From IMG/VR virus record IMGVR_UViG_2574180019_000007: a stretch of 22,878 bases of DNA. One strand, given 5' to 3'. Below, piece after piece: positions 18,842 through 22,878 of this stretch. The notes below the pieces were generated by a model. That model was given only the letters and a program-made list of their open reading frames with translations, had not been told where the DNA came from and made no database searches. Each line of letters opens with the position of its first letter. The stretch's first letter is position 1. The position numbers and the translations under genes are program-made. Source of the DNA: a virus. Its lineage: Duplodnaviria; Heunggongvirae; Uroviricota; Caudoviricetes.

Positions 18842-19335
18842 TGCTGACCCCACAAACAGATTTCACGCTCAATCTCACGACGAGTCATGAGACCTTTCCA
18901 TTGCTTACCGCCAGCATATGTCCAGCGACGTAGCTGATCACATGCGCCTTTGATATCGCCCTGGTTTATTTTGCGAAGAAGCGTCGATGTTCTGAAATTG
19001 CCAGCACCCACGTTGTAAACGAATGAGTAAAGAGCGCCGCGCATTGTTTCCGGTATATCGACTTTGATGTACGGGTTAATTTGTCTGGCGACCGTGGCAA
19101 GGTCTTTATTCAGGAGGGCTTTGCATTCTGCTTTGGTATACGTTTTACCGAGCATGATGTCTTTTCCTGTATGCCCGTGACATACAGTCCATACACCAAC
19201 AATATCTTTGTATGGTATGTAGCTGACACCTTCCAGACCATCGTTACCACTTGGGCCAGTGATTAACACTGATGCTATAGCAATTGCTCCGCCACCAATA
19301 GCAGCAGCAACGGCTTTTCGTAATGATGGAGGCAT
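18838..19335 (-). CDS. R: SAR endolysin (T4-lysozyme-like, phage 21 R type)
   Basis: 165-aa ORF with a Gly/Ala-rich N-terminal signal-anchor-release segment ([20 protein letters not shown]), then the E-x8-D-x5-T catalytic spacing ([16 protein letters not shown]). Matches my memory of the phage 21 / DLP12 RrrD-type endolysin and is unlike the lambda R transglycosylase. Confidence 0.9.
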
Positions 19336-19550
19336 TATTCACCTCTCGCAGCCTTGCGCTTATCTTCTTTAATCTTGAAATAAAGGTTTGTCAGGTACGT
19401 CAGCAGGCCAAATACCAGGCTACCCAGCACACCTATTGCCGCCCACTGTGAGGGCGTGACTTTATCGAGCAACTGTAAAAACCAGTACCCGGCACTACCT
19501 GCTGAGGTACCATAGGCGACACCCGTTGTTAACTTATCCATGGATTTCAT
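19335..19550 (-). CDS. S: Pinholin S (phage 21 S21 type), dual-start motif
   Basis: 71-aa [74 protein letters not shown] with two transmembrane segments, resembling S21. Two Met codons (M1, M4) separated by a Lys fit the antiholin/holin dual-start arrangement. RBS GAGGTGGGG upstream. Confidence 0.85.
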
Positions 19551-19674
19551 AACCCCACCTCGCAGACAAAGCGGGTGTAAATTAAGGGGATACTACGTAT
19601 CGCAATAAAGGCAGAAACGTAACAGATTCGGAGTCAGTGAATAACTCAGGTATTGGGTTATCAGCTAATATCGA

Positions 19675-19711
19675 GACTCAAAAAATGGAAAAACCCGCTC
19701 GACGGCGGGTT
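19675..19711 (-). terminator. Intrinsic terminator on the minus strand about 140 nt upstream of S, with no minus-strand ORF upstream of it
   Basis: Minus strand reads AAACCCGC-CGTCGA-GCGGGTTT followed by TTCCATTTTTTGAG: an 8-bp GC-rich stem plus U-tract. Not terminator-like on the plus strand. Confidence 0.45.
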
Positions 19712-20138
19712 TAAGCTGTGTGACGAAGTAACCACTCTTAACAGCATAACCAATTTTTTACGTACGTAAACTACTAAATGATATTTGTGAGAATGCCACC
19801 GAGTGTTCAAAACACCACCACAAATGCATAAGAAAACTTCAACAAATAACCAGTTAATAATTTCCGATGTTATTTTTAGTTTGTTTAAATTAAGCTAAAG
19901 AATTATAGAGCACTTATAAATAAGTGCCATTAATATAAATTAGCTAATAGATTTATTTTTGTTCAGACAAGAGCCATGAATAGGATTAGATAGAAAAGGT
20001 TCAGATAAAAATAGAGATCTACTTCACAAATTAAATGAGAAACTAAAACTTACATCTTGAAATAATCACATTGATTAGATGAATATTTATCGCGCAGTGA
20101 CATCATTTTTTAATAAAAGTTCAAAAAAAGGGCGTACA

Positions 20139-21221
20139 ATGAAAAAATTAACAGTGGCAATTTCTGCTGTAGCTGCATCAGTACTGATGGCGATGTCTGC
20201 TCAGGCAGCTGAAATTTATAATAAAGACAGTAACAAGCTGGATCTATACGGGAAAGTTAATGCCAAGCACTACTTCTCCTCTAATGATGCAGATGATGGT
20301 GATACTACTTATGCCCGTCTTGGCTTCAAAGGTGAAACCCAAATCAACGATCAACTGACTGGTTTCGGTCAGTGGGAATATGAATTCAAAGGCAACCGTG
20401 CTGAATCTCAAGGTTCTTCCAAAGACAAAACCCGTCTTGCATTTGCAGGCCTGAAATTTGGTGATTACGGCTCAATCGATTACGGCCGTAACTACGGTGT
20501 AGCATACGACATCGGTGCGTGGACTGACGTTCTGCCAGAATTCGGTGGTGATACCTGGACCCAAACAGATGTGTTCATGACTGGTCGCACTACTGGTGTT
20601 GCAACTTATCGTAACAACGACTTCTTTGGTCTGGTCGATGGCCTGAACTTTGCTGCTCAGTATCAGGGTAAAAATGACCGCACTGACGTAACTGAAGCCA
20701 ATGGTGATGGTTTCGGTTTCTCCACTACTTATGAGTATGAAGGATTCGGCGTGGGTGCAACCTATGCTAAATCAGATCGCACTGACGGTCAGGTCGCCTA
20801 TGGTAAGAGCAAATTCAATGCCTCCGGCAAAAATGCGGAAGTATGGGCTGCAGGCCTGAAATATGATGCGAACAATATCTATCTGGCTACCACATATTCT
20901 GAAACTCAGAATATGACCGTTTTTGGTAATAACCATATTGCAAACAAAGCACAAAACTTTGAAGCAGTAGCACAATATCAGTTTGACTTCGGTCTGCGTC
21001 CATCTGTTGCTTACCTTCAGTCAAAAGGTAAAGACCTTGGTGTTCATGGTGACCGAGACTTAGTCAAGTATGTCGATGTCGGTGCTACTTACTACTTTAA
21101 TAAAAACATGTCCACTTTTGTTGATTACAAAATCAACTTAATTGACGATAGTAAGTTTACCAAAACAGCTGGTATTGATACCGACGACATCGTCGCTGTA
21201 GGTCTGGTTTATCAGTTCTAA
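20139..21221 (+). CDS. nmpC: OmpC-family general porin (NmpC / Lc-like phage-encoded porin)
   Basis: 360-aa product from ATG at 20139 (RBS AAGGG). Signal peptide [23 protein letters not shown], then [17 protein letters not shown]..., classical enterobacterial porin blocks ([81 protein letters not shown]) and C-terminal ...VGLVYQF. Opposite strand to Q and the lysis genes. The gene symbol is by analogy with DLP12. Confidence 0.9.
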
Positions 21222-21230
21222 TCTGACTTA

Positions 21231-21270
21231 CGAAAAAGATATGTTGCGGGAGGCTTTGCCTCCGCAACAT
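21231..21270 (-). terminator. Strong hairpin at the 3' end of the porin gene; U-tract is on the minus-strand side
   Basis: ATGTTGCGGGAGG-CTTTG-CCTCCGCAACAT (12-bp stem with one bulged G). On the minus strand it is followed by ATCTTTTTCG; on the plus strand by ATATAAGTGGAG (no U-tract). Lies about 140-170 nt downstream of the Q stop in the minus direction. Confidence 0.4.
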
Positions 21271-21357
21271 ATAAGTGGAGCCCTCAAGCCACTTCCTTTA
21301 GAAGCACTACCTTGCTTCTTACTATATAAACCTTCTGTTATATATTACCCTTTATTT

Positions 21358-21386
21358 TGGGGGCGTTTCCACGCCCCATTTTTAAT
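21358..21386 (+). terminator. Plus-strand intrinsic terminator about 140 bp downstream of the porin stop
   Basis: GGGGCG (21360-21365), loop TTTCCA, CGCCCC (21372-21377), followed by ATTTTTAAT. On the minus strand the hairpin is followed by CAAAATAAAGGG, so it is oriented for plus-strand termination. Confidence 0.45.
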
Positions 21387-21409
21387 AACTTTTAGTAAAC
21401 AATTGCATA

Positions 21410-21793
21410 TCAATTAGAATTATTAGCAACGATATCCATATCTAACCGGATATCTAATGCCATTAACATCCCTTCAATTATGCCCTCAGCCTTCTGTAAC
21501 CTTTTCCCGATATAACCATCCGAGCAGCAATGCTTACTTGCCAGTGACATGAATGTCATACCACATACATAATAATCTACTAATAAATCGTGTAAATCGC
21601 TGTTGTTCTTTTTCAGACGGGCCATGCACCCGCAAATGATCATCGCGTCATCGTCACAACATTGCGGGCGAGATTTTACTTTTGAAGGAATTAATCCCTT
21701 AAAACCGGCGGCAATGGACGACCAGGTCACATCTTCATGATTATTAGCCGCCCACGCACCCCAACGCTCAAGAACCATCTGAATATCACGCAT
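21410..21793 (-). CDS. Q: Late-gene antiterminator Q (DLP12 QuuD type)
   Basis: 127-aa product from ATG at 21791-21793 (RBS GGAG): [35 protein letters not shown]...[20 protein letters not shown].... Matches my memory of E. coli QuuD. Cys-rich zinc-binding-type motifs. Positioned upstream of the lysis genes. Confidence 0.85.
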
Positions 21794-21878
21794 CAACTTA
21801 CTCCACAAAAATCAGACCAGAACGCCAATTACAAGCAAAAATCAACAAAACAGTATTAGTTGATTGTTATCTCTGACT

Positions 21879-22019
21879 TCATACTCCTGTTCCTGTCAGG
21901 GTTTTGGCGTAATTCTTCAGTATTCGGTAATCGGTCAAAACAGAACCGAGGAAACGATATAAGCGCAGACGCCCCCAGCGGTGGCGAAGAAGTTCTGCCA
22001 TATTAAACTCAAACATCAT
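21879..22019 (-). CDS. ylcG: Small ORF, YlcG-like (46 aa)
   Basis: Not in the ORF track (under 60 aa). Minus-strand ATG at 22017-22019 overlaps the rusA stop (ATGA) and encodes [46 protein letters not shown], then TGA. Resembles my memory of DLP12 YlcG, which lies between rusA and quuD. Confidence 0.55.
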
Positions 22020-22378
22020 TCATTCCCCATTTCGGTGATGGTCAGTTCCAGCCTCCCACCTTTGGTAACAGGCATCTTCACAACGCGGTAATCAACGACC
22101 TGAGCATCATCCAGCCAGAAACCTGCTTTAGTGAGTGCGTCAAAAGCGGCTTTTTGCAGATTATCCAGGTCACGGCGACGGCGATCCGGCATGTGGCACT
22201 CAATGCGGATTTTCACAGGCATAGCCAGGCCGATATCCAGCATTGCGTTTTTAATGATTCGGGCGACGTTATCGCGGTATGCCTGCCCCTCTGCGCTGAC
22301 GTGCGTGCGCCCGCGATTATGGCGGTAATAGCGATTATTGCTCGGAGGCCAGGGTAATGTGATGCTGTAGGTATTCAC
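22016..22378 (-). CDS. rusA: Holliday junction resolvase RusA
   Basis: 120-aa [41 protein letters not shown]...[33 protein letters not shown]..., which I recognise as DLP12-type RusA. GTG start overlapping the stop of the upstream remnant. Confidence 0.9.
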
Positions 22379-22503: not shown

Positions 22504-22628
22504 CTAAACCTAGATAGAATCCACTCTGTGCACATTGAAGCCCGCTCTATGCTTTCTTTCAGGTATTGAAGGGATTGAGATGGGCTAAGCATTATTGGCC
22601 TCCTGCATCAGGAGAAAGACAATCATGG

Positions 22629-22878
<250 letters not shown>

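What the first reader, a model, noticed from the sequence alone, without database searches (positions are those of the whole stretch)
21222..21409. Structured Q-porin intergenic region: candidate late promoter/terminator unit and/or IpeX-like small RNA
The ~190 bp between the porin stop and the Q stop holds two strong hairpins with opposite polarity: one with its U-tract on the minus strand (21231-21270) and one on the plus strand (21358-21386). In the minus direction the first lies ~150 nt downstream of Q, the geometry expected for a pR'/qut/tR' unit giving a short terminated leader that Q-modified polymerase reads through. In the plus direction, the DLP12 and PA-2 porin loci are reported to encode a small regulatory RNA (IpeX) at the 3' end of the porin gene that represses host OmpC/OmpF; the plus-strand terminator here would be a natural 3' end for such an RNA.
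Basis: partly seen in the sequence, partly recalled or inferred. Interest (0 to 1): 0.45.

Follow-up and report, generated by a model that had tools for sequence, protein, structure and literature searches.

The report
Prophage porin 3' tail: the ipeX locus
The structured stretch between the prophage porin gene and the Q gene is the already described ipeX small-RNA locus (the porin's 3' untranslated tail) plus a terminator for the opposing Q transcript; it is not the Q-dependent late promoter, which lies 1.6 kb away in front of the lysis genes.

Summary
It folds far better than shuffled sequence (z -6.2 on the plus strand, -4.2 on the minus strand).

The IpeX reading is correct. The region is 94% identical (158/168) to the annotated 167-nt ipeX of E. 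coli K-12 DLP12. That RNA runs from the nmpC stop codon to the porin terminator and is 167/167 identical to the sequence downstream of PA-2 lc. The equivalent here is window 21219-21385 (+). The locus occurs in 2,510 of 5,426 complete E. coli genomes.

The pR'/qut/tR' reading is not supported. The element homologous to the mapped late promoter of 933W/Sp5 (same Q family, PF06530) lies at 19770-19680 (-), just upstream of the holin. In porin-less relatives this element follows Q within about 50 bp. Here a 1.66-kb porin cassette (about 19774-21434), which includes the finding, has been inserted between Q and pR'.

The minus-strand hairpin (21272-21231) is most simply a terminator for the Q/early transcript that shields the porin gene.

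Verdict: already known, low interest.

The parts
20139..21221 (+). Prophage porin gene (NmpC/Lc/OmpD-like), 360 aa; source of the transcript whose 3' tail is the finding
   Evidence: Pfam Porin_1, E 1.9e-151. Annotated as porin in the 100%-identical Nissle 1917 locus.
21219..21385 (+). ipeX ortholog: 167 nt running from the porin stop codon to the end of the porin terminator U-tract
   Evidence: Maps onto K-12 ipeX 574365-574531. Identity 158/168. Five-hairpin fold, -53.6 kcal/mol, z -6.2.
21239..21272 (.). Hairpin A: 15-bp bulged stem. On the plus strand it is the 5' stem-loop of the IpeX region with no U-tract, so it does not terminate. On the minus strand it is the stem of a terminator.
   Evidence: -22 kcal/mol on both strands, z -6.3 and -7.1. 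The stem is kept in the K-12 allele through a shift of the bulge.
21231..21272 (-). Intrinsic-terminator-like site for the Q/early rightward transcript: hairpin A plus CUUUUUCG. It lies 10 nt before the transcript would enter the porin stop codon in antisense.
   Evidence: Sequence and fold. In 15 of 69 related loci the U-tract is weakened to CUUUUAG. Termination itself is inferred, not shown.
21273..21344 (+). Internal hairpins B (21273-21294), C (21300-21319) and D (21323-21344) of the IpeX region
   Evidence: MFE structures of both alleles. Allele differences fall in loops or lengthen the stems.
21360..21385 (+). Rho-independent terminator of the porin/IpeX transcript: GGGGCGU-UUCC-ACGCCCC followed by AUUUUUAA
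   Evidence: Terminator scan. Fold -13.8 kcal/mol. The stem (one singleton change, 21364) and the U-tract are otherwise unchanged across the 17 variants; the common differences fall in the loop. The annotated K-12 ipeX 3' end coincides with it.
21410..21793 (-). Q antiterminator (QuuD type, 127 aa, Q21 family). Its last ~8 codons (21434-21410) lie in cassette-specific sequence.
   Evidence: PF06530, E 6.7e-54. PDB Q21 6p18, E 4e-8. Homology to the Q of porin-less relatives ends at 21435.
19774..21434 (.). Approximate limits of the 1.66-kb porin cassette (moron) inserted between Q and pR'. It holds an A+T-rich promoter region, the porin gene, ipeX and both terminators.
   Evidence: Breakpoints of homology with porin-less loci L008, L003, L010, L013 and L016. 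In all 127-aa-Q loci the pR' homolog lies about 1.6 kb beyond Q.
19680..19770 (-). The actual pR'/qut/tR'-type unit: -35 TTTACG 19770-19765, -10 TATGCT 19748-19743, predicted TSS ~19736, hairpin 19712-19691, T-run to 19680. It lies 130 bp upstream of holin essD (19550).
   Evidence: About 78-88% identity to the 933W and E. coli L008 pR' regions. Conserved across five genera. The TSS is transferred from the Sp5 dRNA-seq/Term-seq mapping. Terminator scan hit.

Best explanation
The interval is the 3' untranslated tail of a prophage-borne porin gene, i.e. the ipeX locus, overlapped by the 3' end of the convergent Q transcript.

Plus strand: transcription from the porin promoter runs past the stop codon at 21221. 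It passes hairpin A, which has no U-tract on this strand, and ends at the intrinsic terminator 21360-21385. The ~167-nt tail (21219-21385) folds into five hairpins with a U-rich single strand before the terminator. Whether released by processing or acting as part of the porin mRNA, this is the RNA reported for the K-12/PA-2 allele to lower host OmpC and OmpF post-transcriptionally, so that the phage porin replaces the host porins.

Minus strand: the transcript carrying Q passes the complement of the porin terminator, which has no U-tract on that strand. It meets hairpin A followed by CUUUUUCG, which most likely stops un-antiterminated transcription just before it would run antisense into the porin gene.

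The Q-dependent late promoter is not here. It sits at 19770-19680 (-) in front of the lysis genes, and the whole porin-ipeX cassette is an insertion between Q and that promoter.

Shown: sequence and positional orthology to ipeX, the folds, the location of the pR' homolog and the cassette boundaries. Inferred: expression, processing and OmpC/OmpF repression by this allele, and termination at hairpin A.
For: - Orthology to K-12: the interval is 95% identical to the K-12 quuD-nmpC intergenic region.
- Annotated ipeX coordinates 574365-574531 (R, 167 nt) begin at the nmpC stop codon and end in the terminator U-tract. They map to window 21219-21385 at 158/168 identity.
- K-12 ipeX is 167/167 identical to the sequence downstream of PA-2 lc.
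- Reviews describe IpeX as made from the porin promoter as part of the porin transcript and as repressing OmpC/OmpF (PMC12197685; PMC5069750; PMC8065619).
- Fold z-scores are -6.2 and -4.2.
- Both alleles keep all five hairpins. The 8 substitutions and 2 indels between them fall in loops, linkers or a bulge, or lengthen stems. In the window-to-K-12 direction, 0 of 1000 random mutation sets reach the K-12 allele's stability; the reverse direction shows no such excess (25%).
- The locus is present in 2,510 of 5,426 complete E. coli genomes (46%); every listed full-length match lies beside a porin gene, or at the IS5-split nmpC pseudogene in K-12-type strains. It is also in 36 phage records.
- The pR' homolog is elsewhere. 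The published DLP12 lysis-operon promoter fragment (-121 to +650) includes the region immediately upstream of essD and is reported to be under Q control (PMC7918800).
- The 58-aa ORF in the interval is cut to 26 aa in the K-12/PA-2 allele.
Against: - There are no expression data for this allele or strain.
- Rfam has no IpeX family, so no model-based confirmation is possible.
- Comparative support for the RNA structure is weak. Across 17 variants, 12 of 24 variable columns are in paired positions (binomial p 0.22), and the mutation simulation is significant in one direction only.
- DNA palindromes fold on both strands, so the fold does not say which strand matters.
- The IpeX mechanism is unresolved: per the review it does not rely only on complementarity with ompC mRNA, and per my recollection of the original paper no complementarity was found. 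My duplex test was uninformative.
- The minus-strand U-tract is weakened in 15 of 69 related loci.
Confidence: 0.85

Rival explanations
1. One reading: the interval holds the Q-dependent late promoter unit. pR' and qut would lie just downstream of Q on the minus strand and hairpin A would be tR'. This would give a ~100-150-nt leader that Q-modified polymerase extends antisense through the porin gene into the lysis genes.
For: - It sits immediately downstream of Q, as in the canonical cassette (10.1101/651190).
- A strong minus-strand terminator lies about 180 nt from the Q stop.
- A relaxed scan finds two weak 8/12 promoter-like sites on the minus strand (21371->21342 and 21348->21321), the same raw score as the true pR' homolog.
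Against: - No similarity to the pR' of the same Q family lies in this interval. That element is at 19773-19689 and is conserved across genera next to Q.
- In porin-less relatives it follows Q by about 47 bp, and the finding region is absent from them.
- No site passes the standard promoter scan.
- The interval is A+T-rich, so -10-like hexamers are expected by chance.
- The DLP12 lysis promoter used experimentally includes the region immediately upstream of essD.
Confidence: 0.03
2. The interval is nothing more than two convergent terminators plus spacer. The IpeX phenotype would be a multicopy or over-expression effect of a structured 3' UTR, and at native level the region only ends transcripts and stabilises the porin mRNA.
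For: - As I recall the original paper, IpeX was isolated as a multicopy suppressor and no base-pairing with ompC was found. The review also notes that regulation does not rely only on complementarity.
- In 20 clinical isolates ipeX levels did not track OmpC (PMC7177473).
- Comparative evidence for the structure is weak.
Against: - Three extra hairpins and a U-rich stretch are kept in both alleles across more than 2,500 genomes.
- By my recollection of the abstract of Castillo-Keller et al. 2006, which could not be opened here, the lc transcript carrying the ipeX sequence at its 3' end, made on PA-2 lysogenization, lowers OmpC.
- The spacer is at least as conserved as the porin coding sequence around it (94% versus 86-90% in the K-12-type loci).
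Confidence: 0.1
3. The interval encodes a small protein: the 58-aa ORF at 21241-21417 (+), annotated 'hypothetical protein' in a few phage records.
For: The ORF exists in this allele. Some phage annotations place a hypothetical protein here.
Against: - The ORF is truncated to 26 aa in the K-12/PA-2 allele by a T-to-A change.
- There is no Shine-Dalgarno sequence upstream (ACGAAAAAGAU-AUG).
- The start codon lies inside the stem of hairpin A.
Confidence: 0.01

Closest known systems
ipeX / IpeX sRNA of E. coli K-12 cryptic prophage DLP12 (qsr') and phage PA-2
   Same: - Same position: directly after the phage porin stop codon, ending at the porin's Rho-independent terminator and facing the 3' end of the Q gene.
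- Same length (167 nt) and 94% sequence identity.
- Same five-hairpin fold.
   Different: It is a distinct allele with 8 substitutions and 2 single-base indels, shared at 99% identity or better by 678 complete genomes including Nissle 1917. Here the porin gene is intact, whereas K-12 nmpC is split by IS5 58 bp before its stop. The function of this allele is untested.
pR'-qut-tR' late regulatory cassette of Q21-family phages (phage 21; 933W/Sp5, whose terminated leader is StxS)
   Same: The neighbouring Q is of this family (PF06530; PDB Q21 hit; about 81% identity to 933W Q over residues 1-120). A minus-strand terminator lies downstream of Q.
   Different: The interval has no homology to the family's promoter/QBE region. 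The real homolog is 1.66 kb further on, at 19770-19680. That unit has only the first hairpin and lacks the distal tR'/StxS part of 933W.
Phage 'morons' (promoter-gene-terminator cassettes inserted between phage genes) and 3'UTR-derived sRNAs
   Same: A self-contained, reverse-oriented cassette with its own A+T-rich promoter region, gene and terminator sits at the Q|pR' junction. C. braakii carries a different cargo at the same junction. The regulatory RNA comes from the mRNA 3' end, as with other 3'UTR sRNAs.
   Different: The two terminators are nested, so the convergent transcripts would overlap by about 150 nt. The cassette also supplies the last codons and the stop codon of Q.

Membership tests
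ipeX (IpeX sRNA locus) | Lies immediately 3' of a lambdoid-prophage porin gene (nmpC/lc type), on the porin strand | tested here: met
   Porin stop at 21219-21221; the region follows it directly.
ipeX (IpeX sRNA locus) | Sequence homology to the annotated 167-nt K-12 ipeX / PA-2 lc downstream sequence | tested here: met
   158/168 identity over the full length; K-12 equals PA-2 at 167/167.
ipeX (IpeX sRNA locus) | Ends at the porin gene's Rho-independent terminator | tested here: met
   G+C stem 21360-21377 plus AUUUUUAA. The annotated K-12 3' end maps to 21385.
ipeX (IpeX sRNA locus) | RNA is made from the porin promoter and accumulates or is processed as a discrete species | not testable with these tools
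   Stated for the K-12/PA-2 allele in PMC12197685. No transcript data for this window.
ipeX (IpeX sRNA locus) | Post-transcriptional repression of OmpC and OmpF | not testable with these tools
   Literature only. The duplex-energy test against ompC/ompF leaders was uninformative because the MicF-ompF positive control also failed.
Q-dependent late cassette (pR'/QBE/SDPE/tR') | Sigma-70 promoter directly downstream of Q within the interval, minus strand | tested here: not met
   No site at the 9/12 threshold. Only two 8/12 matches in A+T-rich sequence.
Q-dependent late cassette (pR'/QBE/SDPE/tR') | Homology to the promoter/Q-loading region used by the same Q family | tested here: not met
   The 933W/Sp5, L008, L010, L013 and L016 elements align to window 19773-19689, not to 21222-21409.
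Q-dependent late cassette (pR'/QBE/SDPE/tR') | Intrinsic terminator downstream on the same strand | tested here: met
   Hairpin A plus CUUUUUCG on the minus strand. This is necessary but not sufficient.
Q-dependent late cassette (pR'/QBE/SDPE/tR') | Q-dependent read-through into late genes | not testable with these tools
   Needs in vitro transcription or reporter fusions with and without Q.

The most novel reading that the evidence does not exclude
The terminators are nested, so the 3' UTR of the Q transcript (21409 to 21231, minus strand) is fully complementary to IpeX and the porin 3' UTR (21219 to 21385, plus strand). The overlap could be a regulatory device.

In lysogens, abundant porin/IpeX RNA would pair with leaky Q transcripts and mark them for RNase III, stabilising lysogeny. 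On induction, the Q transcript, or a weak promoter such as 21371->21342, would titrate IpeX and shut off the porin.
Probability: 0.08. Interest if true: 0.45.

Novelty: already known. Interest (0 to 1): 0.12.

Why it matters
There is little new here. The region is an allele of a described prophage small-RNA locus found in about half of complete E. coli genomes.

The useful outcome is a corrected map of this late region:
- Q and its late promoter are separated by a 1.66-kb porin-ipeX cassette.
- Late transcription does not have to cross the porin gene in antisense.
- PGAP-style annotation leaves both ipeX and the pR' unit unannotated in the RefSeq loci examined here: Nissle 1917 (feature table) and the genomes listed.

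If the antisense overlap with the Q transcript were functional, it would link lysogenic-conversion gene expression to the lysis decision. Nothing here shows that.

Tried and rejected
- **Rfam.** An E-value scan of 19300-22100 and a gathering-threshold scan of the whole window gave no family. The only sub-threshold hits were chance ones: sau-19 on hairpin A and Trp_leader on the pR' leader. Rfam has no IpeX model.
- **Original IpeX paper.** I could not open it by DOI or by a guessed PMC id. Details from its abstract are from my own memory and are marked as such.
- **Covariation.** The 17 variants from 110 related loci are too similar. 12 of 24 variable columns are paired (p 0.22), so no covariance model was built.
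- **Mutation simulation.** It was significant only in the window-to-K-12 direction: 0/1000 against 25% in reverse. It also cannot separate the strands.
- **RNA duplex energies of IpeX against ompC and ompF leaders.** Uninformative, because the MicF-ompF control was not significant either. A first attempt timed out.
- **3'-end and dsRNA data sets.** The Term-seq supplement of PMC7815308 contained none of the four gene names searched (ipeX, quuD, nmpC, essD). The p19 dsRNA supplement shows antisense pairs inside K-12 nmpC but none reported for the ipeX interval.
- **Small-protein reading.** Rejected because the ORF is not conserved.
- **REP element.** ipeX is flagged 'REP' by the tool in PMC12306157. 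I did not pursue this, as I see no match to the REP consensus as I recall it.

Full report
**Context.** The window is the late region of a lambdoid prophage, in the reverse orientation of K-12 DLP12. The gene order is:
- rusA (22016-22378, -)
- ylcG (21879-22019, -)
- Q/quuD (21410-21793, -)
- a porin gene (20139-21221, +)
- holin essD (19335-19550, -), followed by endolysin, Rz/Rz1 and bor/iss (+)

A 331-bp query spanning the finding is 100% identical to many phylogroup-B2-type genomes, including Nissle 1917 and ATCC 11775. Q is a Q21-family protein (PF06530, E 7e-54; PDB Q21 6p18, E 4e-8). It is about 81% identical to 933W Q over residues 1-120.

**Observation.** Hairpin A (21239-21272) is a 15-bp bulged stem of about -22 kcal/mol on either strand (z -6.3 and -7.1). 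Its U-tract (CUUUUUCG) exists only on the minus strand. Terminator T (21360-21377) is a 7-bp G+C stem of about -14 kcal/mol whose U-tract (AUUUUUAA) exists only on the plus strand. Three further hairpins lie between them: B 21273-21294, C 21300-21319 and D 21323-21344. The interval folds with z -6.2 on the plus strand and -4.2 on the minus strand.

**What it is, plus strand.** The interval is 95% identical to the K-12 quuD-nmpC intergenic region. ipeX is annotated in K-12 at 574365-574531, reverse strand, 167 nt (supplement of PMC8313858). The nmpC CDS ends at 574529. The annotated RNA therefore starts at the porin stop codon and ends in the terminator U-tract. Transferred to the window, this is 21219-21385 (+), 167 nt, 158/168 identical.

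K-12 ipeX is 167/167 identical to the sequence downstream of lc in phage PA-2 (J02580). This agrees with my recollection of the original report (Castillo-Keller et al. 2006, J Bacteriol 188:576), which I could not open. Reviews state that IpeX is produced from the porin promoter as part of the porin transcript, needs processing, and represses OmpC and OmpF.

The locus is present in 2,510 of 5,426 complete E. coli genomes; every listed full-length match lies beside a porin gene, or at the IS5-split nmpC pseudogene in K-12-type strains. It has two main alleles: 678 genomes at 99% identity or better to the window and 1,823 at 90-95%. It also occurs in 36 phage records. PGAP does not annotate it.

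**Structure conservation.** Both alleles give the same five-hairpin fold. The 8 substitutions and 2 indels between them behave as follows:
- some lie in loops or linkers;
- one shifts the bulge of hairpin A;
- some lengthen stems B and C.

Random mutation sets of the same size applied to the window allele never reach the K-12 allele's stability (0/1000). The reverse test is not significant (25%). Across 17 variants, variable columns are not depleted in paired positions (12 of 24, p 0.22). The fold is therefore thermodynamically strong, but comparative support is only suggestive and cannot discriminate between the strands. The 58-aa ORF in the interval is truncated to 26 aa in the K-12/PA-2 allele, so it is not coding.

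**Where the late promoter really is.** The annotated pR'/qut/terminator of 933W (AF125520 20666-20748) aligns to the window's minus strand at 19773-19689, not to the finding. For the identical Sp5 sequence, dRNA-seq and Term-seq place the pR' TSS 258 nt upstream of tR' (PMC7547250). On the Sakai sequence this falls about 7 nt downstream of the -10 hexamer TATCAT.

The homologous features in the window are:
- -35 TTTACG at 19770-19765
- -10 TATGCT at 19748-19743
- TSS near 19736
- hairpin 19712-19691, with a T-run to 19680
- all 130 bp upstream of essD

The block TTTACG(T/A)(A/T)CGTAAAA...TA....TG.TAA.AGTG (dots are variable positions) is invariant or nearly so across Escherichia, Trabulsiella, Pantoea, Citrobacter and Xenorhabdus loci. 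It is followed by a hairpin whose arms change while staying complementary by eye in the alignment (pair counts not run).

In porin-less relatives the block begins about 47 bp after Q homology ends. In the window the two are 1,661 bp apart. Every locus with the 127-aa form of Q carries the porin cassette, except C. braakii L014, which has a different three-gene reverse-oriented cargo at the same junction. The porin-ipeX unit (about 19774-21434) is therefore a moron inserted between Q and pR', and it supplies Q's last codons. The DLP12 lysis-operon promoter fragment used experimentally (-121 to +650) includes the region immediately upstream of essD and is reported to be Q-controlled (PMC7918800).

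**Minus strand of the finding.** With pR' elsewhere, the simplest role for hairpin A plus its U-tract is to terminate un-antiterminated transcripts leaving Q before they enter the porin gene in antisense. This is an inference. The U-tract is weakened in 15 of 69 related loci.

A relaxed promoter scan finds two weak 8/12 minus-strand candidates inside the interval, the same raw score as the true pR' homolog. Consensus scoring alone therefore cannot exclude a weak anti-IpeX promoter. The case against a Q-dependent unit here rests on homology and synteny.

**Comparison and verdict.** The finding is the ipeX locus, a known prophage 3'-UTR small RNA, in a common allele. All sequence-testable membership criteria are met, and the functional ones cannot be tested here. 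It is not a member of the pR'/qut/tR' class: two defining features were tested and not met.

The only mildly unusual feature is that the two terminators are nested, so the convergent Q and porin transcripts would be complementary over about 150 nt. A regulatory use of that overlap is possible but unsupported.

Novelty: already known. Interest: low.

Noticed in passing
window 19680-19770 (-): An unannotated pR'-type late promoter unit of the Q21/933W family (TTTACG-16-TATGCT, TSS ~19736, terminator hairpin 19712-19691). It would give a ~50-nt terminated leader. It is conserved across five enterobacterial genera but lacks the distal part that yields StxS in Stx phages. The weak Rfam Trp_leader hit (E 0.73) here is a chance resemblance.
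   Followed up: yes
L014 3891-6225 (Citrobacter braakii ATCC 51113): The same Q|pR' junction holds a different cargo: three reverse-oriented ORFs (345, 106 and 132 aa), with a terminator-like hairpin directly after Q. The junction looks like a recurrent insertion site for morons.
   Followed up: partly
window 21410-21434 (-): The last ~8 codons and the stop codon of Q lie in cassette-specific sequence. This Q (127 aa) lacks the C-terminal ~20-25 residues of the Q proteins in the porin-less relatives examined (933W/Sp5).
   Followed up: partly
window 22595-22878: A fragment of an IS3-like element (ISEc52 family) interrupts the NinX/DUF1364 region to the right of rusA. Only 2 of 5,426 genomes match this junction over its full length.
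   Followed up: partly
window 21321-21371 (-): There are weak promoter-like matches antisense to IpeX: TGGAAA-18-TAATAT and GTAATA-16-TATAGT. In the K-12 allele the first reads TTGAGA-19-TAATAT. If active, it would make a ~100-nt anti-IpeX RNA ending at hairpin A.
   Followed up: partly
K-12 nmpC (NC_000913.2 coordinates 575107-575732), equivalent to the porin CDS in the window: A published p19 pull-down data set lists abundant RNase III-cut dsRNAs inside nmpC. Antisense transcription across the porin gene therefore occurs in K-12. Its origin (IS5 or read-through from Q) is unknown.
   Followed up: no
window 19791-20138: The A+T-rich 350-bp region upstream of the porin gene is 84-100% conserved among cassette-bearing loci. 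The PA-2 record annotates two CRP sites in the equivalent region, suggesting catabolite control of the porin-ipeX transcript.
   Followed up: no
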